The notes beneath the pieces were generated by a model. The model had not been told where the DNA came from, ran no database searches, and saw only the letters and a list, made by a program, of their open reading frames with translations. Below, one piece after another: positions 35,369-53,523 of a stretch of DNA of 64,000 nucleotides; positions within the stretch are counted from its first letter, which is position 1, and every line of letters begins with the position of its first letter. A program made the translations under genes and the position numbers. Origin of the DNA: Candidatus Latescibacterota bacterium. Its GTDB lineage: Bacteria; Latescibacterota; UBA2968; GCA-2709665. The DNA lies in NCBI GenBank assembly GCA_965226795.1, contig CBDDDZ010000005.1:1474016-1538015 (forward strand), given 5' to 3'.

Positions 35369-36583
35369 TCAATGGTGTCGTTGTTCGTGCAGGGCCTGTA
35401 TGAGCCGGTCGACATGGTCAAATCCATTGCAAATGTGGGTAGATACCCGTATCCAGTGGGCGTCGCCGATTCTTTCCGTTGGCACGGTGATCTGATAGCG
35501 CTCATACAGGTCGAGGTTTTCGAATCCCGTGAGGTGGAAAGCCGAGATTGAACCGGACATATCGGCCCTGGAGGGCGTGAGCAACTCTGCCCCGCCTGCT
35601 GCCGCCATACCTTCCCGAAGATAGGCCGCCAGTGCCCGGCCTCTCTGCAGAATCCGATCTTTGCCAACCTGTTCCTGGAAATCGACGGCTTCGCCTACGG
35701 CGGCAAAAGCGGCCTGATCACGGGTGCCCCAATTTTCGATACCCCACATAAACGGACGGTCGTTGATCCGCAGCATTCCTTCCCCACCCCGTTTTGCGCC
35801 ATCGCGGCTGTATCCCCAACTTACAATGACATGATCCAGCTGCTCTTGCACGTTTGGCGACGCGTAAAGGAAACCCGTACCCTTGGGCGCGCAGAGCCAC
35901 TTGTGGCAATTGCCGCCGTAAAAGTCGCAGCTAAGGGCGTCCAGGTCCAGAGGGATCATGCCAGGGGCGTGTGCGCCGTCGACTGCAATCATCGCACCAT
36001 GGTTGTGAGCGAGCCGGGCGAGCGCTCCGACTGGCGCAATCAAACCGGTGCGGGTGATGATATGACTGCAAAGGACCAGCCGAGTGCGACCCGTAAACTC
36101 GCTTTCAAACGCGGCCAGAATGGCTTCAGGATCGTCCGTCGCCAGGGGAAAGCGGGCGCGCTTCACCACAACCCCGTGCCGTCGTTCCGCCAGATGAAGG
36201 CAATGATCGATTGCGCCGTATTCATGGTCCGAGGCCAGGATTTCATCACCGGGACTCCAGGCCAGACCGTGCACCACCATATTGATGGCTACGGTGACGT
36301 TGCAGGTGAATGCGATGTCCTCAGGTGGCGCGTTGATAAAAATGCCCAACCGGCGGCGGCCCTCGTCCACGGCGCCTGAATACCTCGCTCGATTCCGGAT
36401 CGCGCTGCGTTCAACATCCTTCATTATTGCAGTCATTTTCTCGAATACCTGTGTGGGCTGCGCGCCTACGGATCCGGTGTTGAGGTAGACCTCATCGTCG
36501 GCGATCATGTATGCTTTTCGAATCGTCTGCCAATAGGCTTCCTCCTCTGCGGAAGTCGGCCAGGACACGTCAAGAAAGGTCAC
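35369..36583 (-). CDS. Class V aminotransferase / cysteine-desulfurase-isopenicillin-N-epimerase-like PLP enzyme
   Basis: IAVDGAHAPG..FYGGNCHKWLCAPKGTGFLY (PLP lysine). 404 aa. Confidence 0.8.
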   Translation of the reverse strand: MTFLDVSWPTSAEEEAYWQTIRKAYMIADDEVYLNTGSVGAQPTQVFEKMTAIMKDVERSAIRNRARYSGAVDEGRRRLGIFINAPPEDIAFTCNVTVAINMVVHGLAWSPGDEILASDHEYGAIDHCLHLAERRHGVVVKRARFPLATDDPEAILAAFESEFTGRTRLVLCSHIITRTGLIAPVGALARLAHNHGAMIAVDGAHAPGMIPLDLDALSCDFYGGNCHKWLCAPKGTGFLYASPNVQEQLDHVIVSWGYSRDGAKRGGEGMLRINDRPFMWGIENWGTRDQAAFAAVGEAVDFQEQVGKDRILQRGRALAAYLREGMAAAGGAELLTPSRADMSGSISAFHLTGFENLDLYERYQITVPTERIGDAHWIRVSTHICNGFDHVDRLIQALHEQRHH

Positions 36584-37013: not shown

Positions 37014-38255
37014 TTGCATCCGTGCCTTGACCGTCAACTATCCCTTGGACACATTGCAGCCGGCGCCACGAAAGTTGGCGTCAGATCACGGTGTGGGATG
37101 GACATGCCCTGGCCGGGTTCCGTCCATAAATCGTTCGTTAAACTGGTTCGCACGGAATTTCAGCGCCATCCGGAGGAGGTTGCGGTGTCGAAGCGTCTGT
37201 CGAAGAACACTACTATGGGTCAACTGCACACGCAAGCCCGACAGCTTCTGGACGATATCAGAAGTGGAGATCCGTCCACGTGTAAGCGGATCGTTCGTCA
37301 TCCGCACTATCTCTACAGGAATCTGAGCCCGAATGAGGTCAAAGGACTCGTGTTTACGCTGAGCGACGTCCGGCTCATCGTTGCCCGGGAATACAGGCAC
37401 AAGACCTGGACAAATCTCGAGGAAACCGTCCGAAAGGTTCGACAACTGGAAACATCGTCCGTTCAGGAGGCGATTCTGCAGGATCGAATGGATGACCTCA
37501 GGACTACGCTTGTCGGCCATCGAAACCTGGTTCACGAACCCCTCTATTGGCTCACGCGCTGGAACCGGATTCCGACCGGTTCCCTACTTTCGTTTGCACG
37601 TGAGAACGGATCGATCGCGTCGATGCAGGCGGTGGTTGAAGCTGGCGCGGATCCGACCGAGTTTCAGGATCAATTCTTCGGACTCTGTGAGAATCTGAAT
37701 CTGGACGGAATGCGGCGTATGGTCGCTATTGGTCTGGATCCGAATCGGGCTGTCAATGATGGATGGAACTGTGATGTGCTCCATGGGTGCCTTCAGACGT
37801 ACACCCGAAAGTCCGCCGATCATCTGCACGCCTGTATCAATCTGTTGATCGACGCAGGCGAGCGATTCGAAGATGGACCGGTGTGGGATCTGTTTCGGGC
37901 AAGAGGGACCGACTGGAACTGAGCACTGGCGAACGACAGGCATCTCGTGTATGAGAAATACGATTTCGACTATGGTAACCATCTGTCTCTCAGAGGGTCC
38001 ACGCTCTTGCACCTGGCGGCGGAATACAACCTGTTCTGGGCGGTGGATCTCCTTCTCTATTATGGCGCTGACCTCGATGCCCGTGTCGATATTTGTGCTG
38101 ACGGCGTGGGCGGGCATACTCCCATATATCATACGATTGCATCCAACGGGGAAGCATGTTTCGCCCTGTTCGAGTATCTCTTGAGCAAGGAACCCTACCT
38201 GAACGTGAAGGCATTCATTCAGGTGGACACGCAGCGGGGTGACTCACTCGCTTAG
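37014..38255 (+). pseudogene. Ankyrin-repeat protein interrupted by a single in-frame TGA (37920..37922); the two ORFs 37014..37922 and 37947..38255 are in the same frame
   Basis: ...FRARGTDWN*ALANDRHLVYEKYDFDYGNHLSLRGSTLLHLAAEYNLFWAVDLLLYYGADLDAR..GHTPIYHTIASNG. Ankyrin repeats lie on both sides of the stop. Confidence 0.55.
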
Positions 38256-38636
38256 AAGCGGCGTGGTCCCTGTGTACGTAGGCATCAGAGAGGTAACACC
38301 AATGGGGTACGCGCTTTGGTACGAGAAGGAACCGACCTACCGGAACGCACCTCGGGAAGTCAAACTGCTCAGGGACATCGGTGCGCCCGAGTGAGAGCTT
38401 TTCATCGCCGACCTTCGTGTTTGTCCCATTCCGTGCCCCCCTCGGCATTGCAGGTGACGTGCATCGAGAGAGGTGCTTCCGGACACGGTCTCCTCGCGCC
38501 GGTGAGTTTCTTGCGGCGAATTCCGTCCTGGCATCCGGCGGTGCTGGTTGAAATGCGACCTGCCGGACCGCACCGCGTTGAAGTCATGGCGCGATATTTC
38601 GCGTGAGGTCGCCGGTTTTGGCCCTCGGTACCCGTC

Positions 38637-38665
38637 TTGACAGGGTGATTTATCTTGTCTATATT
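38637..38665 (+). promoter_or_regulatory. Near-consensus sigma-70 promoter TTGACA, 17-nt spacer, TATATT, for the formate dehydrogenase operon
   Basis: Read directly from the sequence, about 85 nt upstream of the ATG at 38749. Confidence 0.5.
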
Positions 38666-38748
38666 AAAATGCTTAGTACAACAACGACGTGTTCCACCTG
38701 GAGGGGGGCAGGTTAGTTTCTGATCCACACGCATGGCGGGAGTGTGCA

Positions 38749-40410
38749 ATGGCGGGCCCTTCGGACGATGAACTGGTTCGACGCTGGAAAGACGAACCCG
38801 CACCGGTGCTGCCGTTGTTGCACGCGTTCCACGAACGGGATGGATATATCACTGATGAAGCCCTCCGGTCCATCTCGGTGGGCTTGAAAACACCGCTTGC
38901 AGATCTGTTTGGCACCGTAACGTTCTACCATCACCTTTCTCGCGAGCCCGGAGGCCTGAATAAATTCCGGGTGTGTACCGGCCCGATATGCGCGCTTCGG
39001 GGCGCACAGGAATTGTGCGATGCCCTGAACGGCGTCCCAATGGCATGCGCGGGCAGGTGTGACGAACCGGTACCGGTAATTCAGAGCCATCGCGTACTCG
39101 TAGGCACGAATGCACAGTGCCTACAGGAAGTACCAACGCCACCGCCCGCGCTAAATCCAGACAACCTGGAGGAGTGTGTCTTCCGTCACATTCGCGCGCC
39201 GAACCGCGCGACCCTCGAAGGATATCGCGCGACCCACGGGTACGAAGGGTTGGAAAGAGCCACAATTAAAATGCGGCCCGTGGAGGTTATGGAACGGGTT
39301 ACAGAGAGCGGGTTGACCGGCCGAGGCGGTGCCGGCTTCCCCACAGGTGCAAAATGGAAGGCGGTTGCAGAGGCCACCGGCGATCCGAAAACGGTTGTCT
39401 GCAACGCCGATGAGGGAGAACCGGGCTGCTTCAAGGATCGAGCCTTGATGGACTACGATCCGCACGCGGTGCTGGAGGGTATGGCCATCGCCGCGTTCGC
39501 AACGGGCGCCACACGAGGGTTCATTTATCTACGGTACGAATACCCGCAGACGCTGAGCATTCTGGAAAACGCCATTGAAGAAGCGGAGGCGGCCGGATTG
39601 CTTGGCGAAGGCATTATGGGGACGGACTTCGACTTTCGAATACATATTCGGCGCGGCGGAGGGGCGTATGTGTGCGGAGAAGAGGGGTCATTGCTGAACA
39701 GCCTGGAGGGCAGGCATCCGTTTCCCAGAAACCGACCGCCGTATCCCGTTACCCACGGATTTGAGGATCTGCCCACGGCGGTAAACAATGTTGAAACGCT
39801 GGTTGCCGTACCCCAGATCCTCCGAAAGGGTGCGGACTGGTACCGGGATCTTGGGCTGAACGGTCAACCCGGCACCAAAGTAATCAGTGTGTCCGGCGAT
39901 ATCGCAAGGCCGGGGAATTACGAGGTCCCGTTCGGCTTGCGACTGAAAACACTGCTTTACGATTGGGGCGGCGGCCCCCTCGAGGGCCGGAACATCCAGG
40001 CGGTGACGATGGCGGGGTTGTCCGGCGGCTTTGTAGCGGGCGACGCATTCGAAGCCACTCTCGACGAACCCAGCCTCCGCAGCTACGGCTCTTTTCTGGG
40101 CGCCGGGGGCATCATCGTATTTGACGATACCCGGGATATGGTTGAAGTTGCCCACGGCGCAATGGCCTTTTTTGCGGACGAGTCATGCGGCAAGTGTTTT
40201 CCGTGCCGAATCGGCACGCGCCGGTTGGCCGAGAGGCTTAACGGCGCTGTCGGACCCGGTCAGGTCGGACCATGGCGGGCGGAGGTTCATGATATCGGCC
40301 AGACAATGATGGCGACCAGCGCGTGCGGCCTGGGCACGGCGGCGCCTCTGGTGACCGAGAGCCTGATGAAGTATTTTCCGAATCAGGTCGAAAGGCACGT
40401 CGAACGGTAA
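38749..40410 (+). CDS. NAD-dependent formate dehydrogenase beta subunit: fused NuoE-like [2Fe-2S] and NuoF-like (FMN/NAD, 4Fe-4S) flavoprotein
   Basis: N-terminal NuoE-like Cys pattern (CTGPICALRG...CAGRCDEP). NuoF motifs GRGGAGFPTGAKWK and ESCGKCFPCRIGT. The start is set at the internal ATG of track ORF 38689..40410. Confidence 0.85.
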   Translation: MAGPSDDELVRRWKDEPAPVLPLLHAFHERDGYITDEALRSISVGLKTPLADLFGTVTFYHHLSREPGGLNKFRVCTGPICALRGAQELCDALNGVPMACAGRCDEPVPVIQSHRVLVGTNAQCLQEVPTPPPALNPDNLEECVFRHIRAPNRATLEGYRATHGYEGLERATIKMRPVEVMERVTESGLTGRGGAGFPTGAKWKAVAEATGDPKTVVCNADEGEPGCFKDRALMDYDPHAVLEGMAIAAFATGATRGFIYLRYEYPQTLSILENAIEEAEAAGLLGEGIMGTDFDFRIHIRRGGGAYVCGEEGSLLNSLEGRHPFPRNRPPYPVTHGFEDLPTAVNNVETLVAVPQILRKGADWYRDLGLNGQPGTKVISVSGDIARPGNYEVPFGLRLKTLLYDWGGGPLEGRNIQAVTMAGLSGGFVAGDAFEATLDEPSLRSYGSFLGAGGIIVFDDTRDMVEVAHGAMAFFADESCGKCFPCRIGTRRLAERLNGAVGPGQVGPWRAEVHDIGQTMMATSACGLGTAAPLVTESLMKYFPNQVERHVER

Positions 40411-40462
40411 AGATCCGCGCCGGTGTGCGTGAGTCCCACTGACCCTATCTGGAAGGCGGGAA

Positions 40463-43204
40463 GTGATGGTCACAGTTGAAAATGGAGCCAATACTGCCAC
40501 GATGACTCTGGACAAGGAAACGGTAACGTTTTCCGAAGGCGAAACCGTTTTTGACGTGGCGCAAAAGCACTCCAAAGATGTGCCGACGCTGTGTTACGAC
40601 TCCCGGCTGAAACCCTTTGGAAGTTGCCGCCTCTGCGTGGTGGATGTGGAGGGTGCGCGAACCCCCCTGGCTTCATGCACCACGCCCGCGACACCGGGGA
40701 TGGTCGTGCGTACGGAGACGGATGCGATACTGAGGTATCGAAAGGTGTTGCTGGAGATGGTGGCCTCCGAAAACCCCGTGATCGACGTAGACCCCCTTAG
40801 TGGTTACGCCTCCCAGGAACTGGCAACTCTTGTAGATCGATACGGTGCGCGGACCGGCCGGTTCAAGGGAGCGCAGTCCGGACGCAGCAAGGTGGAGGAC
40901 GACAATCCATTTCTTCTGCGTGATTATGACAAATGCATCTCTTGCTACCGTTGCGTCAGGGTATGTGCCGAGCAGGAGGGAGATGATGCAATCAGCGTGA
41001 TGAACCGCGGCTTCGAGACACAGATTGTAACCGAATTCGATGGTCTGCTGAAAGAGTCGTCATGTACGTTTTGCGGGCAGTGTATTCAGACGTGCCCCAC
41101 GGGTGCGCTTGCGGACAAGAAAGCGTTGCGGGCGTCCAGCGATCCGGGCGAAATTAAAAAAACGCGTACTATCTGCCCGTATTGCGGGGTGGGGTGTTCG
41201 GTGGACGTAATGATCAAAGGGGAGAAGATTGTGGGCATCCAGCCCGCGATGGACGGTCCCGCAAACCTGGGTGCGCTTTGTGTCAAGGGACAGTTTGCTT
41301 TCGACTTCGTACACCACCGTGATCGGCTGAAGATGCCGCTGGTGCGCGGAGGAGACGGCAGACTGCACGAAACGAGCTGGGAGGAGGCACTGGATCGCGC
41401 CGCGCAGGGTTTCAAGGATGCGCGGGCGGCGCATGGGAAGTACAGCGCGTACGGGGTGGCCTCCGGCCGTGCGCCTACCGAGGCTGCCTACCTGATGGGT
41501 AAATTCATCCGCGCCGGCTTCGGCACCAACTATATAGACAACTGCAGCCGTGCGTGACACGCCCCAACGGTTGCCGGTCTGGCAGCCACGGTCGGACGGG
41601 GCGCGATGTCGAATCCACTGGTCGATATGGAAAAGCCCGATGTGTTCTTCTGCATCGGGACGAATATGACCGAGTGCCATCCAGTGGCGGCCACGCGGCT
41701 AAAGAAAGCGATACGCAGGGGGGCAAAACTGATTGTCGCGGATCCCCGGCGCATCCCTCTGGCCGAGATGGCGGATCTGTATCTTCCGTTACGGGTGGGA
41801 TCCGACGTTGCGCTCTTGCTTGCGATGGCCCACGTCATCGCAAGGGAAGGGTTGATCGACCGGGACTTTATCGAAAACCGGACGGTGAAGGCTGAGGACT
41901 TCCTGGAGCATGTGAAGGAGTATCCCCCGGAATGGGCCGAGAGAATCACGGGCGTGCCAGCGAAGGACATTGAACTGGCCGCCATCTGGTACGGCATGGC
42001 CGATAGGGGTGCAATTTACTATACGCTGGGAATTACCGAGCATATCTGTGGCGTTGACAATGTTCAGAGCCTCTGTAATCTGGCCCTGATGACGGGAAAC
42101 CTGGGGCGCGACGGTACGGGCATCAATCCGATGCGCGGCCAGAACAATATCCAGGGCGCAGGGGATTCGGGAGCTGTTCCGGATAAATTCCCAGGGTTCC
42201 AGCCGTGCGACGACCAGGAAAACGCGATAAAATTCTCACGCCTTTATGGCCGGCGTATCGACGCGGAAAAGGGTGTTACCAAGGTGGCGGCATTGAACCT
42301 GTGCGGCGACCGGATCCGCGCAATGATGATAGACGGCGAGAACACTGTTGTATCCGATCCGGACCGGGCGCATTGCACGCGGGCATTGCAGAGCCTGGAC
42401 CACCTGGTGGTGATCGATATTTTCTTGACCGAAACGGCTGAACTTGCCGACGTCGTGCTGCCGGCCACGGCTTGGGGGGAGACGGACGGGACGTGCACGA
42501 ATACCGAGCGGCGTGTCCAGCGCCTGCGCGCGGCGGTCCCGCCCCCTGGCGAGGCCCGTCCCGATTGGTGGATTGTAAGTGAGCTTGCGAAACGCATGGG
42601 AACGCCGGGATTCGGGTATGGTTCTGCGAAAGACGTGTTCAACGAGTTGTGCAGCGTGTCGCCCATATACGCAGGGCTGAATTGGGATCGAATCGAACAC
42701 GGGCAGTATCATTGGCCGGTCCCGTACGGAGGCCATCCCGGCACGCCGATGTTGCACGAAGGCGAATTTTCAAACGGCCGGGGTATTTTCACGAAGATTC
42801 GCTATCGCGATCCGGCGGAGACGGTCAGCGACGCCTTTCCGGTTTGGTTGACTACGGGTCGCAGATTGCAGGCCTACCATACTCGAACTCAGACAGGGCG
42901 GGCGACGGGGATGGACTGGCTTCTTTCCGAAGAGACGCTGGAAGTACATCCGGCGGACGTGTCGGCCTGGGGTCTGACCGACGGCGGCTTGTGCCGGATG
43001 TCGAGCGAACGAGGTTCCATTCGGATCAAGGTGAAGGCGACCCGGCAATCACCCCGTGGTACCGTGTTTGCCAGTTTTGGTTTCAATGACGTTCCGGTGA
43101 ATATCCTGACCGGTTCGGGCTACGATCCCATTACGGAGACAGCCGAATTAAAGGTTTGTCCGGTTCGTATTGAACCACTTGTACCAGAACGATATATACC
43201 CTAA
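40463..43204 (+). CDS. fdhA: Formate dehydrogenase alpha subunit (molybdopterin, NuoG-like N-terminal Fe-S domains) with in-frame UGA selenocysteine at 41555..41557
   Basis: Track ORFs 40463..41557 and 41606..43204 are in the same frame. Read-through gives ...NYIDNCSRA-U-HAPTVAGLAATVGRG..., matching the conserved C-x-R-[VA]-U-H-[GA]-P-[ST]-V-x-G-L selenocysteine site of FdhF/FdhA. A bSECIS-like hairpin follows. Confidence 0.9.
41569..41587 (+). promoter_or_regulatory. Bacterial SECIS-like hairpin (GGUUGCC-GGUCU-GGCAGCC) 12 nt downstream of the UGA
   Basis: 7-bp stem (one G-U pair) with the apical loop GGUCU. Sequence and spacing resemble the E. coli fdhF SECIS (UGCA-GGUC-UGCA). Confidence 0.6.
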
Positions 43205-43213
43205 GGATTAAAG

Positions 43214-44044
43214 TTGAATTCAGGCATTACACAGCGAGTCGTGTCGAGGGTGAATAACGGCTGTCCGGCGCGTTCGATTCAGGACGATATCGCGATAGAA
43301 GAGCCCCTGGAAATCCGCGTGGCGGGGGATCCGGTGGCCGTCACCATGCGCTCTCCCGGAAATGACTCCCGGCTCGCCGTGGGTTTTCTGTTTTCGGAAG
43401 GGATTATCGCGTCTATCGAGGACATTGGGCGGGTATATCACTGCGGAAGGCCCGGGACAGAGGCATACGGTAATGCGATTGACGTGCTGCCCGCGCCCGG
43501 CCACAGTCTGGATATCGAGCGGGTTAGCGCCAGCCGGCGCGGCACGCTGACGACGTCTGCGTGTGGGGTATGTGGTCGACTGGGCATAGCTGACCTGGTG
43601 GAGCGTTGTTCTGTTTTGCCGCCTGGACCGAAGATATCGGCGAAATTGCTATCTGATACGATTGAAAATATGACACGGATTCAGCCCACATTCACCCACA
43701 CCGGCGGTGTGCACGCCGCCGCCGCGTTCGGCCTGGACGGCTGCGCGCTTGTATGCAGCGAAGATGTGGGCCGACACAATGCCGTGGACAAAACCGTCGG
43801 CGCACTGCTTTTCGACAGATTGGTGGGAGCGTCTCGGGGAGCCGTCGTACTGGCCGTCAGCGGCAGATCGAGCTTTGAAATCGTCCAGAAAGCGGCAGTC
43901 GCACGAATTCCTATTGTTGCAAGCGTCTCGGCCGCCAGTTCGCTGGCGGTCGATCTTGCAACCGATGTGGGTATTACTCTTGCGGGATTTGTTCGCCGGA
44001 AGGGCTTCAATCTGTACGCGCACCCTGAACGGATTGTGCCATAA
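43214..44044 (+). CDS. fdhD: Formate dehydrogenase accessory sulfurtransferase FdhD
   Basis: DDIAIEEPLEIRV..TTSACGVCG (catalytic Cys loop)..EDVGRHNAVDK. Confidence 0.9.
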   Translation: MNSGITQRVVSRVNNGCPARSIQDDIAIEEPLEIRVAGDPVAVTMRSPGNDSRLAVGFLFSEGIIASIEDIGRVYHCGRPGTEAYGNAIDVLPAPGHSLDIERVSASRRGTLTTSACGVCGRLGIADLVERCSVLPPGPKISAKLLSDTIENMTRIQPTFTHTGGVHAAAAFGLDGCALVCSEDVGRHNAVDKTVGALLFDRLVGASRGAVVLAVSGRSSFEIVQKAAVARIPIVASVSAASSLAVDLATDVGITLAGFVRRKGFNLYAHPERIVP

Positions 44045-44054
44045 GGAGTGGACG

Positions 44055-44282
44055 ATGCCTATTTTTGAGTTTATCTGCGGCAGTTGCCGTCATCCCTTCG
44101 AGATGTTCATTCAGGGCTCCCAGGAACCGCGCTGCCCATCCTGTGGCAGCAGCGAACTTGAAAAACAACTTTCGGTTTTTGCCGTAAGTGGAGGTAGCGG
44201 CCAAACGGTGGATCCCGAACCCCTGGGGCCCTGCGGAACCTGCGGAGAACCCAGAGGTCCTGGCGCCTGTTCACTGAATTAG
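44055..44282 (+). CDS. FmdB-family zinc-ribbon protein (putative regulatory protein)
   Basis: MPIFEFICGSCRHPFE...RCPSCGS...CGTCGE. CxxC pairs. AAGGAG SD 8 nt upstream of the ATG. Confidence 0.7.
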   Translation: MPIFEFICGSCRHPFEMFIQGSQEPRCPSCGSSELEKQLSVFAVSGGSGQTVDPEPLGPCGTCGEPRGPGACSLN

Positions 44283-44288
44283 GCATTG

Positions 44289-44321
44289 GATCCCGGTTGA
44301 AAACGCCGGGATCTTTTTTTT
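44289..44321 (+). terminator. Strong rho-independent terminator (GATCCCGG-ttgaaaacg-CCGGGATC plus T8)
   Basis: Perfect 8-bp GC-rich stem followed by TTTTTTTT, directly after fmdB. Confidence 0.7.
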
Positions 44322-44401
44322 GTACATGAATTGGGAATCCGAGCGAATTTTCCATTAATCCTGTCGGTTCCGCAGGTTGTTTCCTACGTGAAGAATGTGA
44401 G

Positions 44402-44419
44402 ATTTGCATTTGTGCAAAT
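44402..44419. promoter_or_regulatory. Perfect palindrome ATTTGCA-N4-TGCAAAT (candidate operator) upstream of the Hcy-MTase fusion gene
   Basis: Read directly from the sequence, about 150 nt upstream of the ATG at 44571. Confidence 0.3.
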
Positions 44420-44570
44420 TTCCATTCCGACCTATCTTTGGCGGAGTTGGCTCCATAGCGCGTCGACCCCCGCGCCGGGCCACATGCGCGGATTCAATTC
44501 GACGTTTTTGCCGAACCGGAACGGCCTTCGTCCGGCCTGCTGGCTGCCGGCCCGTTGGGGAGTATTCGAC

Positions 44571-46334
44571 ATGGGCGCCGTGTTCACAAAAGCCTACCGC
44601 CGTATTCAACAATCGATTGCCGAGGATCGTTGTGTGATTCTGGATGGCGGCGTTGCCACGGAACTGGACCGGATGGGACTTCGGGATCACGCCATCAGCG
44701 ATCACACCCTCTGGGGCACCTGGGCATTGTACCATGAACCCTATTCGGTGCTGGATGTACACCGACGGTTTGTGGAGGTCGGCTGCGACGTAATTTCAAC
44801 CAATACCTGGGGGATCCTGGAAGGTTCGGAGATAGGCGGGCGAGGGCTGGCGGCAGGTGCCGGAATATCGCATTGGATGGATGTGGCGCAACGCGGTATC
44901 ACGTTGGCGCGCCGGGCAAATCAACAGGTGGGCAGGGAGGACGAATGCGCGGTGGCCTTCAGCGTAAATGGAGACATCGATACCTCTCAGCGGTTGGAAC
45001 GATTACAGCTGCTTTCAAGGGTATTTGTAGACGATCCTCCCGATCTCATCTTGATGGAAACGATGTCAATTGTCCGCGAGGATCTCACGCTTCCTGCGGT
45101 CGAACTGATGATTCAGACAGGTATTCCGGTGTGGCTGAGCTTCCGGCGCTGCAGGCAGGGTCTGTGCGGGGTGCACGGGCAGCACTGGGGGGGTCCCGAA
45201 GGAGATTATTTTGGCAGATTGGCTGCCCGTTTCGAACGAATGGAAATTGGGGCCCTTTTGATCAACTGTCTGCCGGTGGAGCACGTGTCCGGGATGATAT
45301 CGTGGCTGAGGGATTTTACCGATCTTCCACTGGGCGTGTACCCGAACCTGGGGCGTTACCTGGACCCGGGTTGGAAATTCGACGAAACCGTGGGGCCGCG
45401 ATGCTTTGCCGCGTTGGCCGAGGCCTGGCGCGAAGAGGGGGCGCAGATCGTCGGCGGGTGCTGTGGTGTCACGCCCGATCACATTGCTCAAGCCAGAGAG
45501 GCGCTGGCGTGTACCCGGGCGGGCCGTAAGCGAGTCCAGCCTCGTATATTAGCGGGGGGCGGAACCAATTGTGAAGATGGGGTCGTTCCGTGTCCATGGG
45601 TAGACGAGAACATGCGGTCGCTCTTTCCGCTGCCATTTCCTGAAATTGTGTGCGATCCGGGGGTGTTCGCTCCAACGCAGGGGAGCTTTTTGATCTGGAA
45701 GCATCTCTTTCGAACGGGCGCCGGCCAAGGCAAACGCTGCCTGGATGTCGGTTGCGGCACCGGAATCCTGTCCGTGCAACTCGCGTTGAACGGCGCTGCG
45801 CATGTCGTGGCAATCGATATCCAGAAAGAAGCCGTCGGCAATACGATGACGAACGCTTTTCGAAACGGCGTGGCAGATCGCATTTACGGACGGGTTGCGG
45901 ATCTCTATACCTTTGTACCGGAAGACAGGTATGACCTGGTCATCGGCAGTCTTTATCAGATGCCGGTGGATCCGATCCGGCAGACAACCGGACACCGTAC
46001 CGCCGATTTCTGGGGGAGGAATCTTCTCGATCACCTGATTGGGCTGCTGCCGCAGATGCTGGCCGACCACGGTGTCGCCTATCTGATGCAGATTTCGGCT
46101 TTGAGTCAGATTCAAACGTCCGATCTGATTTCGGACTCGGGACTGGACGCGACGGTAATAGACTTCAGCTTTTTTCATTTCAGCCCGGTATTTGACGAAA
46201 ATATCGATCAGATCCGGCGGGTCTCCGAGTTGTCCGATGCCTTTCACCTGAGTTTTGGTCAGGACAACGTGATGGTGATGTACCTGCTGGAACTAAAGTT
46301 CGGCGCAGGCAATCCTTTAGATAGTCCGGTTTGA
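44571..46334 (+). CDS. Fusion protein: homocysteine S-methyltransferase (Pfam S-methyl_trans) domain plus class I SAM-dependent methyltransferase domain
   Basis: N-domain: RCVILDGGVATELDRMGL ... VGGCCGVTPDHI (zinc/Hcy-binding GGCCG). C-domain: KRCLDVGCGTGILSV (motif I), VVAIDI (motif II), LVIGSLYQMP. The start is at an internal ATG with a GGGGAG SD; the 80-aa upstream extension in the track ORF is non-protein-like. Confidence 0.7.
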   Translation: MGAVFTKAYRRIQQSIAEDRCVILDGGVATELDRMGLRDHAISDHTLWGTWALYHEPYSVLDVHRRFVEVGCDVISTNTWGILEGSEIGGRGLAAGAGISHWMDVAQRGITLARRANQQVGREDECAVAFSVNGDIDTSQRLERLQLLSRVFVDDPPDLILMETMSIVREDLTLPAVELMIQTGIPVWLSFRRCRQGLCGVHGQHWGGPEGDYFGRLAARFERMEIGALLINCLPVEHVSGMISWLRDFTDLPLGVYPNLGRYLDPGWKFDETVGPRCFAALAEAWREEGAQIVGGCCGVTPDHIAQAREALACTRAGRKRVQPRILAGGGTNCEDGVVPCPWVDENMRSLFPLPFPEIVCDPGVFAPTQGSFLIWKHLFRTGAGQGKRCLDVGCGTGILSVQLALNGAAHVVAIDIQKEAVGNTMTNAFRNGVADRIYGRVADLYTFVPEDRYDLVIGSLYQMPVDPIRQTTGHRTADFWGRNLLDHLIGLLPQMLADHGVAYLMQISALSQIQTSDLISDSGLDATVIDFSFFHFSPVFDENIDQIRRVSELSDAFHLSFGQDNVMVMYLLELKFGAGNPLDSPV

Positions 46335-48374: not shown

Positions 48375-50632
48375 TTGTCCAATCCTCGTTTCGAAAAATT
48401 GTCGCCCGTACCCGGCCTGGGGCTGGAGGGCTATACCGACGAAGTAACCCTGCCGGCCGGAGCAGAGATCGGTTTCAAATTGGGTGGTCCTCCCGGCACG
48501 GCTGATGTGAACCTCGCGCGGCTGATTCACGGAGACCCAAATCCCGACGGACCGGGTTACAAGGAAGAACCTGTCTCATGGGGGCAGCCGGATCGGATTG
48601 ACGTGCAAGATCAGGTTACGGATTATGGTTCATTCATTGAGATTCCGCACTCCGATACCCTGAATCCGGCGGGTGCGTTTACCGTGGCGCTCTGGTTTCT
48701 GCCAACTCTAGGTGGCGGCGGATGGCGCGCCCTGACGGTGAAGTGGGCGTGTCAAAACTTGAGCTACGGGATTTTTTTCGCCGGCGAGCGGTTTCTGACG
48801 GCTGCGGTGTCTCACGACGGCAAGACGGCACACTGGGCAACCGCCAGAGAGGCCATCCATGTCGGCAACTGGCAGTTCGTGGCGTTCTCGTACCAACCTG
48901 AATCAGGTAACATCTGTCTTTATCAGCAAATTGGGGATACCGCCGGGGTGGTCGAAACCCGATCGTCCTCCGACGCGCTGAGTTTTGCATCGAAAAACAT
49001 CGAGAAGGGTCCGGTGTTCCCGGGCACCGCGCCGCTGCTGTTCGGCGCCTGCCCGGAACCCGACCGCGAAGGCATCCATTGGGCCCATTTTACGGGAAAA
49101 ATCGCGCACCCCGTGCTTTTTGAAACTGCACTCGATCGCGAAGATATCCAGGCACTCGCGGGCGGACGGAATCCTTCAACACTGGGCCCACTGCTGGGAT
49201 GCTGGCATCTTGGCCGCGAGGTGACGGGCGCCCGTGTCGTTGATCTGTCCGACAACGGGAATCACGGGCTTGCCTTAAACGCGCCGGGGCGTGCGGTTAC
49301 TGGACCGTTCTGGACGGGGGAATGCCGTCCCGGCTCTATACGGATCAACCTGACGATTACAATGCGGTCTACCTGCACGAAGACGATCTGGAAGATGCAG
49401 AATGGGCAACGTCTTTCGCGGTGGAAGTACCTCCCGACACCAGGCCCGGCATCTATACACTACGCGCCGAGACAGATGCTGAAACACTCTTCGTGCCGTT
49501 TATCGTGACATCCAGGACGCCGCGGTCGGAATTGGCATGCCAGATCCCCACGCTCACGTGGCAGGCGTACCGAAGCAACCGTGCCGCGTACAGCAATACC
49601 GAAGACGGTGTGCTGGATCGTACGATATGCACTTACGACGTGCATAGCGACGGGTCGACGGTTTACTATTACTCGCGCCTTCAGCCAACGCGCGGATGGA
49701 ATCCCACTGCGGGATTTCAGAACTGGGGCGCGCACAATATTACCGCGAATCTCTACCTGATCGACTGGCTGGACGCGCTGGAGTTCAAATACGATGTCTT
49801 TGCGGACGAGGATCTGCATTGCGGGGGCACCGAGCTTCTTTCTAAATATCGATGTGTGATTCTGGGAAGCCACCCCGAATACCACACCGAAAACATGGTC
49901 GACAGCCTGGCGGCGTACGTGCGAAACGGGGGCCGTCTCGTCTATTTGAGCGGTAATGGCCTGTACTGGGTGATGTCCATCGACCCCCGGCGGCCCCATC
50001 TGCTTGAACTGCGCCGGGGAGGAGAGGGCGACTACGGACCCACGTACGAGCCGGTGCCCGGGGAATCGCAACACAGCACGACACTGGAACTCGGGGGATT
50101 ATGGGCGAGGCGGGGACGCCCGCCCCGACGGACGGTCGGCGTTGAACATGCGTCCAACGCCTGGATGGAAGCGGAAGATAAAAGGGGCTTTCGGCGACTT
50201 CCGTCAAGCAGGGACGCCAGGTACGCGTGGGTTTTCGACGGTGTCGGAAATGACGAAGTTATCGGAGACTTCGGCCTGAACCTGGGCAGCGCTGCAGGCT
50301 TTGAAATGGACGCCGTGCAGGATTGGGCGTGGGACCGGCTCACGCCCGAACCCGTCGTACTCGCCCGGGCGGCCTGTCCCGGATTTATCCCCGCCCGACG
50401 TACGCACGTACCGCCTACGGCGGATCTGGCGATTATGGATTATCCCGGAGGCGGCGCGGTTTTTTCGGCAGGCTCCGTAACCTGGACGGGCAGCCTCTCA
50501 CACAACGGCTATACCAATAACGTCTCCTCCATCACCCGCAACGTAATTCGCCGATTTCTGGATACGCCGGCTGGCGGGACGGTACTTGGAGACGCCGGCC
50601 TACCAACGCTGGTGAATACTTCTTCCAAATAA
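48375..50632 (+). CDS. N,N-dimethylformamidase beta (large) subunit-family protein: N-terminal ConA-like/LamG domain plus C-terminal DMFase-beta-like domain. Split by a 1-nt indel in a G-run at 49316..49320
   Basis: Track ORFs 48375..49508 and 49322..50632 overlap in different frames. G5 to G6 yields a continuous ...GPFWTGGMPSRLYTDQPDDYNAVYLHED... The C-domain motif ...VILGSHPEYHTENMVDSLAAYVRNGGRLVYLSGNGLYWV... is as I recall it for this family. The family assignment is from memory, not a search. Confidence 0.6.
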
Positions 50633-50636
50633 ACAA

Positions 50637-51731
50637 TTGCGGCACACCGGAGATCCCATTCAGATGGACGCCGGAAAGTCGGTATATCCCCGAAGTCTGT
50701 TGCAGCGCCTCGACGAAGACGGCGTGATATGCGCTGAGGGGTATTTGTTCGAACTCGAACGCCGAGGGTATCTGCAGGCGGGCCCTTTCGTGCCGGAAGT
50801 CGTGCTTGAGCACCCGGAAGTCGTGGCCGGGTTGCATCGGGAATTCTGGCGCGCGGGTTCGGACGTGATTGAGGCGTTTACGTACTACGCCCATCGAGAA
50901 AAGCTACGCATCATCGGCAAGGAACATCTTCTGGAACCCCTGCAGAAGAGTGCGCTGGGGATAGCGAAATCGGTCGCCGAATCGGTCGAAGGAGAACGCC
51001 CTCTGGTTGCAGGCAACATTTGCAATACCAACATCTGGGATCCGGAGGATCGGGCAACGGACGCGCAGGTTACGGCGATGTTCGACGAACAGGTGGCGTG
51101 GGCGGCTGAGGCGGGAGTCGATTTCATGATCGCGGAGACGTTCTCCTTTTCCGGGGAGGCCGCACTGGCACTGGCATCTATCAAACGGGCTGGAATAACG
51201 GCTGTGGTGACCTTTGCGCACCATCGGGAGGAAGGATTGAGGGACGGAGTCCTGCTGGATGAGGCCGCAAAACGTCTGGAGCAGGCCGGCGCGGATGTAG
51301 TCGGGGTAAATTGCACCAGAGGACCACAAACGATGCTGCCCGATGTGGAACGTATCCGGCGTGCCATATCCTGTCACGTGGCGGCATTGCCGGTACCGTA
51401 TCGCACGACGGAGGATCAACCGACGTTTCAATCACTTCGGGAGGCGGGCAATGAACCGTCGCCTGAGGGACGTTCGTTTCCGACAGCGTTGGATCCCTTT
51501 ACCTGCCACAGGTATGAAATGGCCGCGTTTGCACGTCGGGCGTTCGATATGGGTGTCCGGTACCTCGGCGTCTGCTGCGGGTCCGGGCCTCATCACGTCA
51601 GATCAATTGCGGAAGCGTTGGGACGAATCCCGCCCGCCCGCCGTTACTCTCCGGACATGTCCAGGCACTACGCGCTGGGCAGCGATTCCAGCCTCAAGGG
51701 CCACAATCGGGAATTTGTCGAAAAGCTGTGA
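50637..51731 (+). CDS. Betaine-homocysteine S-methyltransferase-like (homocysteine S-methyltransferase family) protein
   Basis: GYLFELERRGYLQAGPFVPEVVLEHPEVVAGLHREFWRAGSDVIEAFTYYA ... GVNCT ... YLGVCCGSGPHHVRSIAEALGR. Closely parallels the BHMT N-terminal and zinc-site blocks. Confidence 0.8.
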   Translation: MRHTGDPIQMDAGKSVYPRSLLQRLDEDGVICAEGYLFELERRGYLQAGPFVPEVVLEHPEVVAGLHREFWRAGSDVIEAFTYYAHREKLRIIGKEHLLEPLQKSALGIAKSVAESVEGERPLVAGNICNTNIWDPEDRATDAQVTAMFDEQVAWAAEAGVDFMIAETFSFSGEAALALASIKRAGITAVVTFAHHREEGLRDGVLLDEAAKRLEQAGADVVGVNCTRGPQTMLPDVERIRRAISCHVAALPVPYRTTEDQPTFQSLREAGNEPSPEGRSFPTALDPFTCHRYEMAAFARRAFDMGVRYLGVCCGSGPHHVRSIAEALGRIPPARRYSPDMSRHYALGSDSSLKGHNREFVEKL

Positions 51732-51885
51732 GATATCCCGTGGCCACTCCGTATCGGCAATAGTGTTTTTCCGCAGTCGGCCAGTGTCCCGGAGGGTGAA
51801 GGCGACCGGGTCGAAACTGGCGGCGAACCCACCGGCGGGACAAGAATCAACTTGATTTTGGAATCGACCCGGAGCGTTCACGTCG

Positions 51886-53487
51886 ATGCGATCCTGCGCG
51901 CTGGCTATCGCGGAAACTATACAGGAAGAAGGGGTCCGGTACGTATTCGGTCATCCGGGCGGCGAGGTCGTGGATCTGATCGATGCGCTGGAGAACACGG
52001 GAATCCGATTCGTGCTGACCGGCCACGAGGCCGCCGCCGCCTTTATGGCCAGCGCGATCGGGCGCCTGACGGGGATTCCCGGCGTCTGCCTGGAGACGCT
52101 GGGGCCGGGCGCCTGCAATCTGGTTCTGGGGGTCGGCGCCGCTTACCTCGACAGGGATCCGATGCTGGCTATATCAGCGCGAAGCCCGGCGTCGCGGACG
52201 AGAGTGAGCCAGAAACAGAATCTGTCTCTCAACGAATTGTTCCACCCGATCTGTAAATGGTCCGTCGCGCTGGAAAAGACCGGCGTCGAAGCGACGGTGC
52301 GGTCCGCCTTGATGCGTGCGTCGGCGCCTCCGGCTGGTCCGGTATACCTCACGATACCGAATGATGTCGCTGTGGCCGATGCGGCGCCCGGCCCGGCCGA
52401 GTCTCCGTCCACCCCGTTTCTCGCGTGCAACGGGGACCTTGAAGCGATAACAAGGGCACTGAACCGGGCCGAACGGCCTGTTGGCATTGTGGGCGTCGCG
52501 TTGAATGCCCGGCTGGATTTCGCCGCAGTGCGTCGATTTTTTGCACAATCGCAAATTCCCTACGTTGTTCTTCCACAGGCAAAGGGCATTCCGGATGAGT
52601 TTGGCCCGGGGTATCTGGGCACGGTGGCGTCGGCCGCGGGAGACGCAGTTCTTGTGAATATGATCGAGCGAAGCGATTGTCTGTTAGGCGTGGGTTTCGA
52701 ACCCGTGGAGTCGGCCCAGGACTGGCATCTTCGCCAACCAGTCTACTCCCTGGCCAATTCCTCTATTGCCTTTGGCGACTTTGAACCGGTTTCGGAGTGT
52801 GTGGGCGACGTCACATCCCTGCTCGATCGGCTGCTGGAAGGATATAGCGGGGGCGCACGCTGGACCACGGCCGAAATCCGCGGCGCACAGGATGCCGTCG
52901 CGGTTACGATCTGTCCTGAAGCGGACGCCAGCGCCAATGGTCTATCTCCTTACCATTTAATGTGTGAATTGTACGATACCCTGCCAGGGGAGACCATACT
53001 TTCAGTCGACGTCGGCGCCCACAAGATGCTGATTTCGCAGGTCTGGCTGGCCCGTTCGCCGGGAACGTTTCTGACGTCAAACGGCCTTTCCGCGATGGGC
53101 TACGGCCTGCCGTCTGCGATGGCGGCGGCGCTGGTCCGGCCCGGCCGGCCGGTGGTGGGCGTATTTGGGGACGCCGGTTTTTCCATGATGGTTCAGGAAC
53201 TGGAAACGGCACGCAGGTTGGGCCTGCATCCATTGCTCGTGGTGCTCTGCGACCGGTCTCTGACAATTGTAAAAGTCGCACAAGCCATGCGTAATATCCC
53301 GCAACGGGGCGTAGCGTTGCAAACGGTGGATTGGGCAAAGGTCGCCGATGGGTTCGGTGCAAGGGGAGTGACTGTGACCACCCTGCGTGGAGTGCGGAGG
53401 GTGGTGGAGGAGTGGCTGGCAAATCCCCAGTTGACGGTAGTGGCTGCGCGGGTGGACGAGAAATTATACACAGCGCTGGAATATTGA
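51886..53487 (+). CDS. Thiamine-pyrophosphate-dependent enzyme (acetolactate synthase large-subunit-like)
   Basis: N-terminal Pyr domain (VRYVFGHPGGEVVDLIDAL), central domain, C-terminal PP domain (GDAGFSMMVQELETA). Confidence 0.8.
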   Translation: MRSCALAIAETIQEEGVRYVFGHPGGEVVDLIDALENTGIRFVLTGHEAAAAFMASAIGRLTGIPGVCLETLGPGACNLVLGVGAAYLDRDPMLAISARSPASRTRVSQKQNLSLNELFHPICKWSVALEKTGVEATVRSALMRASAPPAGPVYLTIPNDVAVADAAPGPAESPSTPFLACNGDLEAITRALNRAERPVGIVGVALNARLDFAAVRRFFAQSQIPYVVLPQAKGIPDEFGPGYLGTVASAAGDAVLVNMIERSDCLLGVGFEPVESAQDWHLRQPVYSLANSSIAFGDFEPVSECVGDVTSLLDRLLEGYSGGARWTTAEIRGAQDAVAVTICPEADASANGLSPYHLMCELYDTLPGETILSVDVGAHKMLISQVWLARSPGTFLTSNGLSAMGYGLPSAMAAALVRPGRPVVGVFGDAGFSMMVQELETARRLGLHPLLVVLCDRSLTIVKVAQAMRNIPQRGVALQTVDWAKVADGFGARGVTVTTLRGVRRVVEEWLANPQLTVVAARVDEKLYTALEY

Positions 53488-53523
53488 GATTCCGAAGCGT
53501 TCCGCCGCCGTAACGACCGGGAT

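What the first reader, a model, noticed from the sequence alone, without database searches (positions are those of the whole stretch)
38637..44321. Selenocysteine-containing NAD-type formate dehydrogenase operon with an fdhF-like bSECIS, consensus promoter and strong terminator
fdhA appears as two ORFs in the track only because of the in-frame UGA at 41555..41557. The flanking sequence CSRA-U-HAPTVAGL is the conserved selenocysteine active site. A hairpin GGUUGCC-GGUCU-GGCAGCC 12 nt downstream mirrors the E. coli fdhF SECIS (apical GGUC loop). The operon is: promoter TTGACA-17-TATATT; fused NuoE/NuoF-like beta subunit; Sec-FdhA; FdhD; FmdB zinc ribbon; terminator. This implies selA/selB/selC/selD elsewhere in the genome, and shows that UGA is context-dependently recoded in this organism.
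Basis: partly seen in the sequence, partly recalled or inferred. Interest (0 to 1): 0.55.

Follow-up and report, generated by a model that had tools for sequence, protein, structure and literature searches.

The report
Selenocysteine formate dehydrogenase operon, confirmed
This is an ordinary but real selenocysteine-containing, probably NAD-linked formate dehydrogenase operon whose catalytic-subunit gene only looks split because of a UGA codon that a conserved RNA hairpin just downstream recodes as selenocysteine.

Summary
One in-frame TGA (41555-41557) joins two ORFs into a 912-913 aa FdhA. The joined protein passes the curated Fdh-alpha model. The TGA aligns with Sec140 of E. coli FdhH.

In relatives from about seven phyla, 32 of 33 orthologues have TGA at this codon and one has TGC. 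Both halves of the gene are under purifying selection, and TGA is otherwise the commonest stop in the window.

The hairpin at 41569-41587 starts 11 nt after the UGA, in the same register as the E. coli fdhF SECIS. One stem pair covaries (UA/CG/GC) and is never broken. Of 185 degenerate codon columns with an invariant amino acid, only three use a single codon in all 28 sequences, and they are the three around its GGUCU loop. Rfam SECIS_3 matches full length (E 6e-10) but below its gathering score.

The flanking genes are a fused NuoE/NuoF-like beta subunit, FdhD and an FmdB-type zinc ribbon. The promoter-like and terminator-like sites are present and conserved in the closest relatives. The nearest solved enzyme is the Methylobacterium extorquens tungsten FDH1 alpha-beta enzyme, which has Cys at this position.

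selA, selB, selC and selD could not be looked for in this genome. This is a new member of a known kind and of low interest.

The parts
38637..38665 (+). Sigma-70-type promoter-like site, TTGACA-17 nt-TATATT
   Evidence: It is the only promoter-like match in 38000-44700, at 11 of 12 positions. The block CTTGACA...ATTTATCTTGTCTATATTA, spacer included, is kept in 8 of 12 closest relatives while the flanking sequence diverges. Function is inferred, not shown.
38666..38748 (+). Predicted 5' leader, with a weak hairpin (38696-38713) followed by a U-rich run and a GGGAG ribosome-binding site
   Evidence: The terminator-like scan hit is. The equivalent hairpin is much stronger in L007 and L010 (9-10 GC-rich pairs followed by UUAUUUUCU). 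None is significant against shuffles. Its role is unknown.
38749..40410 (+). fdhB: beta subunit (553 aa), a short NuoE-like [2Fe-2S] domain fused to a NuoF-like FMN/NAD(H) module with its 4Fe-4S domain
   Evidence: Pfam finds PF01257, PF01512, PF10531 and PF10589. The nuoF_fam match has E 2e-126. It aligns with the M. extorquens tungsten-FDH beta subunit 7e5z_B over residues 21-545. The sequence carries GRGGAGFPTGAKW and ESCGKCFPCRIG. It ends right after the 4Fe-4S domain, with no C-terminal ferredoxin domains. The ORF is open from GTG 38689. Gene callers on the same chromosome start at ATG 38749.
40466..43204 (+). fdhA: alpha subunit (912 aa from ATG 40466, or 913 from GTG 40463), with a NuoG-like Fe-S N-terminus and a Mo/W-bisPGD catalytic domain, read through the UGA
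   Evidence: TIGR01591 scores 733.5 bits against a cut-off of 666.25, spanning residues 236-903 across the UGA. The nearest solved structure is 7e5z_A at 673 bits. It is 37% identical to E. coli FdhH, with U140, H141 and R333 aligned.
41555..41557 (+). UGA selenocysteine codon (catalytic Sec, CSRA-U-HAPTVAGL)
   Evidence: TGA is at the same codon in 32 of 33 orthologous loci and TGC in one. It aligns with Sec140 of FdhH. The 16 codons between it and the next ATG are conserved as coding sequence.
41569..41587 (+). SECIS upper hairpin, GGUUGCC-GGUCU-GGCAGCC (the Rfam SECIS_3 match covers 41552-41610)
   Evidence: The spacer is 11 nt and the loop starts 18 nt after the UGA. Pair 18-30 covaries as UA 21, CG 6, GC 1 with none broken. 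Codons +6 to +8 (GCC GGU CUG) are the only 3 of 185 degenerate invariant-residue columns with a single codon in all 28 sequences. pS in the 16 codons after the UGA is 0.06, against about 0.5 in the rest of the gene. The register matches E. coli fdhF. SECIS_3 scores 51.3 bits, E 6e-10.
43214..44044 (+). fdhD: sulfurtransferase for maturation of the FDH cofactor (276 aa)
   Evidence: PF02634 has E 2.7e-63. TIGR00129 scores 162.9 bits against a cut-off of 140.9. The CGVCG motif is present in the sequence. It lies directly downstream of fdhA in 11 close relatives, and near fdhA or fdhB in many distant ones.
44055..44282 (+). FmdB-family CxxC...CxxC zinc-ribbon protein (75 aa)
   Evidence: TIGR02605 scores 50.3 bits against a cut-off of 31.3, and PF09723 also matches. 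It is kept directly after fdhD in 11 close relatives only. Function is unknown.
44288..44321 (+). Intrinsic-terminator-like hairpin (10 pairs) followed by T8
   Evidence: The hairpin with its T-run is kept, with compensating changes, in 5 of 12 of the window and its closest relatives.

Best explanation
The region 38637-44321 is one transcription unit, fdhB-fdhA-fdhD-fmdB. It encodes a soluble alpha-beta formate dehydrogenase built like Methylobacterium extorquens FDH1.

How the enzyme most likely works:
- The beta subunit is a fused NuoE/NuoF-like protein that binds FMN and exchanges electrons with NAD+/NADH.
- The alpha subunit carries a chain of Fe-S clusters and a Mo- or W-bis-pyranopterin site. 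The metal ligand at that site is selenocysteine.
- FdhD matures (sulfurates) the cofactor.
- The role of the zinc-ribbon protein is unknown.

How the recoding most likely works:
- The selenocysteine is encoded by UGA 41555-41557.
- A hairpin starts 11 nt downstream, inside the coding sequence, and presents a GGUCU loop.
- As in E. coli fdhF, this hairpin would recruit SelB carrying Sec-tRNA(Sec) to the ribosome, so the UGA is read as Sec and not as stop.

Shown here: gene identities, conservation of the UGA, selection on the RNA hairpin, and translation of the downstream half.

Inferred: SelB dependence, NAD+ as partner, the choice of metal, and the single transcript.
For: - Domain and family matches above curated cut-offs for FdhA, FdhD and FmdB. 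For the beta subunit the Pfam cut-offs are met; the curated NCBIfam NuoF cut-off is not (421.7 vs 558.65).
- The UGA aligns with Sec140, and the neighbouring His and the NPMRGQNN Arg align with H141 and R333 of E. coli FdhH.
- 32 of 33 orthologues have TGA at this codon. They come from Latescibacterota, Gemmatimonadota, Verrucomicrobiota, Planctomycetota, Acidobacteriota, Caldilineaceae and Handelsmanbacteria.
- All 120 best database homologues are fragments of about 525-546 aa that cover only the part after the UGA. The same split call is therefore made on relatives everywhere.
- pN/pS is about 0.1-0.2 on both sides of the UGA.
- TGA is the commonest ordinary stop in the window, ending 32 of 50 long ORFs.
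- Hairpin:
  - 98% of cells are paired, against 14-66% for slid controls.
  - One pair shows three covarying forms and is never broken.
  - The only three single-codon columns of 185 lie at the loop.
  - Synonymous divergence drops 5- to 8-fold in the 16 codons after the UGA.
  - The register matches E. coli fdhF.
  - Rfam SECIS_3 matches full length with E 6e-10.
  - The loop lies 18 nt from the UGA, inside the 16-37 nt range given for bacterial SECIS elements (PMC10778597).
- The single Cys (TGC) orthologue, L018, has a changed loop, GGUUU.
- The beta subunit aligns end to end with the fused beta subunit of M. extorquens FDH1.
- Promoter and terminator are conserved in the closest relatives.
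- A relative, L022, carries a Sec-containing selD 5 kb from its fdhA.
Against: - No selA, selB, selD or tRNA-Sec is in the 64-kb window. The rest of the genome could not be searched.
- The hairpin is not more stable than shuffled sequence.
- Only one stem pair can covary freely.
- The outermost pair is broken (A.A) in 4 sequences, and the lower helix is poorly kept, at 83% paired with no compensatory change.
- The Rfam score is below the gathering threshold in the window, and 6 relatives give no match at gathering threshold.
- NAD+ dependence, the metal and co-transcription are not measured.
Confidence: 0.9

Rival explanations
1. The UGA is a true stop. The locus would make two proteins, a 363-aa Fe-S module and a 532-aa molybdopterin module starting at ATG 41606, as all automatic gene callers predict.
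For: Gene calls on the source chromosome and on all 120 best homologues are split in this way. An ATG lies 16 codons after the TGA.
Against: - The split would remove the catalytic Sec/Cys-His dyad and cut the Molybdopterin domain (PF00384 spans residues 288-711).
- The 16 intervening codons are conserved at the protein level with synonymous variation.
- The ATG is the conserved internal Met of G-A-M-S-N, which is also present in E. coli FdhH.
- The TGA sits exactly at the Sec140 position and is followed by a constrained hairpin.
Confidence: 0.03
2. The UGA is a sequencing error or a recent inactivating mutation of a Cys codon (TGC to TGA), so fdhA is a pseudogene.
For: One orthologue (L018) has TGC. 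A neighbouring ankyrin-repeat gene in the window does carry a compensated frameshift, so local defects do occur.
Against: - The same TGA is in four independent assemblies of the same sequence (L001-L003 and the window) and in 32 of 33 species.
- The downstream half is under purifying selection as strong as the upstream half.
Confidence: 0.01
3. The UGA is read through, but not by the SelB/Sec pathway. Examples are near-cognate Cys or Trp insertion, or a different recoding factor, because the genome lacks sel genes.
For: The sel genes were not found in the window and could not be looked for elsewhere.
Against: - The hairpin has the position, the loop letters and the 11-nt spacing of the E. coli fdhF SECIS.
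- It has a significant SECIS_3 match.
- The loop codons are uniquely frozen.
- A relative has a Sec-type selD next to the same operon.
Confidence: 0.04
4. The enzyme is Sec-dependent but not a simple NAD+-linked FDH. The NuoF-like beta subunit could belong to a larger electron-bifurcating or hydrogenase-coupled complex.
For: The best PDB matches of the NuoF-like part are subunits of bifurcating or NAD-reducing hydrogenases, such as 7t2r_B, 8a6t_B and 8oh5_B.
Against: - The beta subunit ends directly after the NADH_4Fe-4S domain at residue 550 of 553. It therefore lacks extra C-terminal ferredoxin domains.
- It aligns over its whole length, including the NuoE-like part, with the two-subunit M. 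extorquens FDH1 beta subunit.
- No hydrogenase or ferredoxin genes are adjacent.
- The beta-alpha pair is the conserved core in all relatives.
Confidence: 0.08

Closest known systems
Methylobacterium (Methylorubrum) extorquens tungsten-containing NAD-dependent FDH1 (Fdh1AB; PDB 7e5z, 7vw6)
   Same: - The alpha subunit has a NuoG-like Fe-S N-terminus plus a bisPGD domain (673 bits, aligned over residues 13-906).
- The beta subunit is a single protein fusing NuoE-like and NuoF-like parts (aligned over residues 21-545).
- There is no separate gamma subunit.
   Different: - FDH1 has Cys where this protein has Sec (CTRLCHASSVAAL against CSRA-U-HAPTVAGL).
- The metal here is unknown.
- The operon here also carries fdhD and a zinc-ribbon gene.
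- The next sequence clusters outside this gene's own clade are 46% identical or less.
E. coli formate dehydrogenase H (FdhF) and its SECIS (Rfam SECIS_2, RF01988)
   Same: - Sec, His and Arg align with U140, H141 and R333.
- The SECIS occupies the same codons (V-A-G-L).
- The 5' arm GGUUGC, the loop GGUC(U) and the 11-nt spacer are all the same.
   Different: - FdhH is a 715-aa monomer without the NuoG-like N-terminus and without a NuoF partner. It works in formate hydrogenlyase.
- U17 is bulged in E. coli. Here it can pair with G31, and the loop has 5 nt instead of 4.
- The SECIS_2 model scores only 26.8 bits here, against 87.1 on E. coli.
Rfam SECIS_3 (RF01989)
   Same: The match covers the whole model, positions 1-59, at 41552-41610 with 51.3 bits and E 6e-10.
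   Different: - The score is below the gathering score of 63.
- Eight model pair positions, mostly in the lower stems, are non-canonical here.
- The consensus loop is AGUCU against GGUCU here.
FdsABG-type NAD-dependent FDHs (Rhodobacter capsulatus 6tg9, Cupriavidus necator 6vw7)
   Same: The alpha subunit is related (6tg9_A, 624 bits) and the beta subunit is NuoF-like (6vw7_B, 364 bits; 6tg9_B, 303 bits).
   Different: By established knowledge those enzymes have a separate NuoE-like gamma subunit and Cys at the active site. Here the NuoE-like part is fused to beta and the ligand is Sec.

Membership tests
Formate dehydrogenase alpha subunit (NCBIfam TIGR01591, Mo/W-bisPGD) | Whole-protein score above the curated cut-off | tested here: met
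   733.5 bits against a cut-off of 666.25, for the read-through protein with C in place of U.
Formate dehydrogenase alpha subunit (NCBIfam TIGR01591, Mo/W-bisPGD) | Sec or Cys metal ligand followed by His, plus the conserved active-site Arg | tested here: met
   The UGA, His and Arg align with U140, H141 and R333 of E. coli FdhH.
Formate dehydrogenase alpha subunit (NCBIfam TIGR01591, Mo/W-bisPGD) | Formate oxidation or CO2 reduction activity, and the identity of the metal (Mo or W) | not testable with these tools
   Needs purified enzyme and metal analysis.
Bacterial SECIS element | Stem-loop inside the ORF directly after an in-frame UGA, with the apical loop 16-37 nt from the UGA | tested here: met
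   The stem starts 11 nt after the UGA and the loop 18 nt after it. The range is taken from PMC10778597.
Bacterial SECIS element | Structure maintained by selection (covariation, constraint on synonymous sites) | tested here: met
   - Pair 18-30 occurs as UA, CG and GC and is never broken.
- Only 3 of 185 degenerate columns are frozen, and all three are at the loop.
- pS is 0.06 against about 0.5 in the rest of the gene.
- Only one pair covaries, and the lower helix is not supported.
Bacterial SECIS element | Loop G and U and a U in the 5' arm at the positions that matter for E. coli SelB (G23, U24, U17; positions from my own knowledge of the fdhF literature) | tested here: met
   Columns 23 (G), 24 (U) and 17 (U) are invariant in 29 sequences and identical to E. 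coli fdhF. U17 may pair with G31 here instead of bulging.
Bacterial SECIS element | Reaches the gathering score of an Rfam SECIS family | tested here: not met
   SECIS_3 scores 51.3 against 63, and SECIS_2 scores 26.8 against 70. Six relatives give nothing at gathering threshold. The E-value of 6e-10 is still significant.
Bacterial SECIS element | Binds SelB and directs Sec insertion | not testable with these tools
   Needs a binding assay or a reporter assay.
Sec-decoding trait (selA, selB, selC, selD in the genome) | Presence of the four genes | not testable with these tools
   - They are absent from the 64-kb window: ARAGORN, family scans and tblastn with E. coli SelA, SelB and SelD.
- A Sec-type selD lies next to the orthologous operon in L022.
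Fdh1AB-type (M. extorquens FDH1) two-subunit NAD-linked FDH | Beta subunit is a fusion of NuoE-like and NuoF-like parts, and alpha has a NuoG-like N-terminus | tested here: met
   The alignments are with 7e5z_B over residues 21-545 and 7e5z_A over residues 13-906.
Fdh1AB-type (M. extorquens FDH1) two-subunit NAD-linked FDH | NAD+ as electron acceptor and tungsten cofactor | not testable with these tools
   Only the FMN/NADH-site motifs can be read from the sequence.

The most novel reading that the evidence does not exclude
This gene belongs to a tight Sec-containing clade of Fdh1AB-type formate dehydrogenases.

- Members from about seven phyla are at least 71% identical to it, while the next sequence clusters are 46% identical or less.
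- This suggests the clade has spread horizontally among mostly uncultured soil and water bacteria.
- The clade carries its own SECIS variant, which no Rfam SECIS family captures at its gathering threshold.
- Public gene calls almost always split it in two.
- The conserved neighbours are a SufS-like desulfurase or selenocysteine-lyase-like gene, an FmdB zinc ribbon and a thiol/selenol-methyltransferase-like fusion. They might be functional partners in sulfur or selenium handling.
Probability: 0.3. Interest if true: 0.3.

Novelty: new member of a known kind. Interest (0 to 1): 0.15.

Why it matters
- The main value is for annotation. The catalytic subunit should be called as one selenoprotein of about 912 aa. 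All 120 nearest database entries are truncated at the same UGA.
- It marks the organism, probably a Latescibacterota bacterium, and many uncultured relatives as selenium users.
- It adds a Sec-containing counterpart to the Cys-containing M. extorquens FDH1. That enzyme type attracts interest for CO2 reduction, where Sec variants are usually the faster catalysts.
- It does not challenge current understanding.

Tried and rejected
- Folding energy of the hairpin against shuffled sequence was not significant (z = -0.5), so I did not use it as evidence.
- The lower SECIS helix (columns 6-11 with 44-49) is 83% paired with no compensatory change and many mismatches. I do not claim it.
- My regex search for SelA, SelB and SelD motifs found nothing. 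It was too strict and missed the selD in L022 that tblastn later found.
- ARAGORN found no tRNA-Sec in the window or in 33 related loci.
- A second in-frame TGA, at 37920 between two ankyrin-repeat ORFs, was checked as a possible second selenoprotein. It is a compensated -1/+1 frameshift relative to the L037 homologue, not a Sec codon.
- The 5' leader hairpin was tested as a possible attenuator. Its folds are not better than shuffles and no Rfam family matches.
- The literature search for Latescibacteria and selenocysteine gave nothing relevant.
- I considered finding this genome's SelD through the protein database but did not run it.
- The weak Rfam 'anti-hemB' hit at 44249-44321 is just the terminator hairpin.
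Full report
**1. The observation**

- ORF 40463..41557 ends with TGA at 41555-41557. ORF 41606..43204 lies in the same frame.
- Reading through gives one protein of 912-913 aa with ...NCSRA-*-HAPTVAGLAATVG... at the junction.
- The hairpin GGTTGCC-GGTCT-GGCAGCC occupies 41569-41587. Eleven bases separate it from the UGA, and it is in the predicted minimum-energy fold.
- TTGACA-17-TATATT at 38637-38665 is the only sigma-70-like site in 6.7 kb.
- A 10-pair hairpin plus T8 at 44288-44321 follows the last gene.

**2. Gene identities**

- Beta subunit, 38749-40410: it combines a short thioredoxin-like [2Fe-2S] NuoE-type domain with the NuoF FMN-binding, SLBB and 4Fe-4S domains. It stops right after them.
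- Read-through alpha subunit: it has the NuoG-like 2Fe-2S and 4Fe-4S N-terminus, the Molybdop_Fe4S4, Molybdopterin and Molydop_binding domains. It scores 733.5 bits on TIGR01591 Fdh-alpha (cut-off 666.25), and the match runs across the UGA.
- FdhD, 43214-44044, passes its curated cut-off.
- The 75-aa FmdB-type zinc ribbon, 44055-44282, also passes its curated cut-off.

**3. Is the UGA a selenocysteine codon?**

- TGA is the commonest ordinary stop in the window, ending 32 of 50 long ORFs. The genetic code is therefore not reassigned.
- Against E. coli FdhH, the UGA aligns with Sec140, the next residue with His141, and the Arg of NPMRGQNN with Arg333.
- A scan of one genome per species returned 34 loci. 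Of the 33 that contain the orthologue, 32 have TGA at exactly this codon and one (L018) has TGC.
- These loci are labelled Latescibacterota (83-91% identical, probably the window's own phylum), Gemmatimonadota, Verrucomicrobiota, Planctomycetota, Acidobacteriota, Caldilineaceae and Handelsmanbacteria.
- The same TGA is in three other assemblies of this very sequence.
- All 120 best hits in the protein database are fragments of about 525-546 aa covering only the part after the UGA. This is the signature of gene callers stopping at a Sec codon.
- Both halves of the gene show equally strong purifying selection, with pN/pS about 0.1-0.2. The 16 codons between the UGA and the next ATG are conserved as protein. 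That ATG is the internal Met of the G-A-M-S-N motif also found in FdhH.
- Sequencing error, pseudogene and a genuine split gene are thereby excluded for practical purposes.

**4. Is the hairpin a SECIS?**

Thermodynamics alone says nothing in this GC-rich context (z = -0.5). The comparative evidence is clear.

- In 29 Sec-type sequences the seven stem pairs are 98% paired, against 14-66% when the 3' arm is slid by 1-3 columns.
- Only two stem pairs (15-33 and 18-30) have both partners at third codon positions. Pair 18-30 occurs as U-A (21), C-G (6) and G-C (1) among 28 distinct sequences and is never broken. The non-U-A forms are found in Gemmatimonadota, Verrucomicrobiota and Acidobacteriota loci.
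- In a codon alignment of 28 genes there are 185 columns with an invariant amino acid from a codon family of at least four. Only three use one and the same codon in every sequence. They are the consecutive codons +6, +7 and +8 after the Sec codon (GCC GGU CUG), that is the closing pair and the apical loop.
- Synonymous divergence in the 16 codons after the UGA is 0.06, against 0.46-0.53 in the rest of the gene for close relatives. For distant relatives it is 0.23-0.45 against 0.70-0.80.
- The single Cys orthologue has a different loop, GGUUU.
- E. coli fdhF reads UGA CAC GGC CCA UCG GUU GCA GGU CUG CAC C.... The window element reads UGA CAC GCC CCA ACG GUU GCC GGU CUG GCA GCC. The two share the 11-nt spacer, the 5' arm GGUUGC and the loop GGUC, codon for codon.
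- Rfam has no match at gathering threshold. At E-value threshold, SECIS_3 matches over its whole length at 41552-41610 (51.3 bits, E 6e-10, gathering score 63). The E. coli-type SECIS_2 matches weakly, at 26.8 bits here against 87.1 on E. coli fdhF.
- The loop lies 18 nt from the UGA, within the 16-37 nt range reported for bacterial SECIS elements (PMC10778597).

Weak points:
- Only one pair covaries.
- The outermost pair is A.A in four Longimicrobiales-type sequences.
- A lower helix is not supported.
- Six relatives also stay below Rfam's thresholds.

**5. The selenocysteine machinery**

- The window has only one tRNA gene, tRNA-Arg.
- It has no SelA, SelB or SelD homologue by family scans or by tblastn with the E. 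coli proteins.
- The source is a 5.54-Mb chromosome (ENA ERZ28763644).
- There is one indirect point. In the Verrucomicrobiales locus L022 a selD homologue (E 8e-56 to E. coli SelD) lies 5 kb downstream of the orthologous fdhA. It has an in-frame TGA at the catalytic position itself (...LSKTCG*AAKIDP...).

**6. What kind of enzyme**

- The nearest solved structures are the alpha (673 bits, aligned over 13-906) and beta (aligned over 21-545) subunits of the tungsten-containing FDH1 of Methylobacterium extorquens. That is a two-subunit enzyme whose beta subunit is the same NuoE-NuoF fusion. It has Cys where this protein has Sec.
- FdsABG-type enzymes (6tg9, 6vw7) are next.
- The beta subunit lacks the extra C-terminal ferredoxin domains expected of bifurcating HydB-type subunits. 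The only conserved core across all relatives is the beta-alpha pair. A simple formate:NAD+ oxidoreductase is therefore the most likely function. This is an inference.
- At 50% clustering the whole Sec clade collapses into one representative (72% identical), and the next clusters are 46% identical or less.

**7. Operon signals**

- The promoter block, including its spacer, is identical in 8 of 12 closest relatives although the flanks diverge.
- The terminator hairpin is kept, with compensating changes, in 5 of 12.
- fdhD and the zinc-ribbon gene follow fdhA in all 11 close relatives.

**8. Verdict**

This is a regular Sec-dependent, FDH1/Fds-like formate dehydrogenase operon with an fdhF-type SECIS. 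It is a new member of a well-known kind in an uncultured lineage. It matters mainly as an annotation correction and as a marker of selenium use.

Noticed in passing
window 37104-38255 (TGA at 37920-37922): Two ankyrin-repeat ORFs lie in one frame, separated by a single TGA. Compared with the uninterrupted homologue in L037, the window has a 1-nt deletion and, about 30 nt later, a 1-nt insertion. About ten codons are therefore read out of frame and create the TGA. This is a damaged gene or an assembly error, not a second selenoprotein.
   Followed up: yes
L022 14469-15557: This Verrucomicrobiales relative has a selD homologue 5 kb downstream of its Sec-type fdhA. The selD itself has an in-frame TGA at the catalytic Cys/Sec position (TCG-*-AAKI).
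   Followed up: partly
L018 11063 and the following 30 nt: This is the only orthologue with Cys (TGC) in place of Sec. It keeps the stem, but its loop is GGUUU (Leu codon TTG) and not the otherwise invariant GGUCU.
   Followed up: partly
window 38666-38748; L007 about 8225-8260; L010 about 8229-8262: The predicted 5' leader holds a hairpin followed by a U-rich run. It is weak in the window (38696-38713) and strong in several relatives (9-10 GC pairs then UUAUUUUCU). It could be an attenuator. It is not significant against shuffles, and no Rfam family matches.
   Followed up: partly
window 38643-38659: The 17-nt promoter spacer (…ATTTATCTTGTC) is as conserved as the two hexamers in 8 of 12 relatives. 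That would fit an overlapping regulator-binding site.
   Followed up: no
window 44571-46334 (ORF open from 44331): A fusion of a homocysteine S-methyltransferase-family (thiol/selenol methyltransferase) domain with a class I SAM methyltransferase domain lies directly downstream of the operon. It is in the same place in all 11 close relatives (81-88% identical). A second gene of the same family is at 50637-51731.
   Followed up: partly
window 35369-36583 (- strand): A class V aminotransferase lies upstream on the opposite strand and is syntenic in the 11 close relatives. It is distantly related to SufS cysteine desulfurases and selenocysteine lyases (131 bits, far below cut-offs). It could be a sulfur donor for FdhD, but that is speculation.
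   Followed up: partly
window 49322-54879: Downstream lies a cluster of a dimethylformamidase-like gene (DMFA2_C), a second homocysteine methyltransferase-like gene, an acetolactate-synthase-like TPP enzyme and a SoxB-like FAD oxidase. Together with short-chain dehydrogenases, it may be a methylated-compound or C1 catabolic island that yields formate.
   Followed up: no
database hits P0001-P0120: All 120 nearest homologues in the protein collection are C-terminal fragments, variously named 'YjgC' or 'molybdopterin-dependent oxidoreductase'. The selenoprotein is systematically mis-called as two genes in public metagenome annotation.
   Followed up: yes
loci L015-L038; FdhA is 71-75% identical between phyla as distant as Chloroflexota, Acidobacteriota and Verrucomicrobiota. 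The next sequence clusters are 46% identical or less. This suggests horizontal spread of the Sec-type cassette.
   Followed up: no
window 23917-31094: Two very large proteins (728 and 1626 aa) carry lamin-tail, cohesin, dockerin and He_PIG domains. This suggests a cell-surface, cellulosome-like assembly.
   Followed up: no
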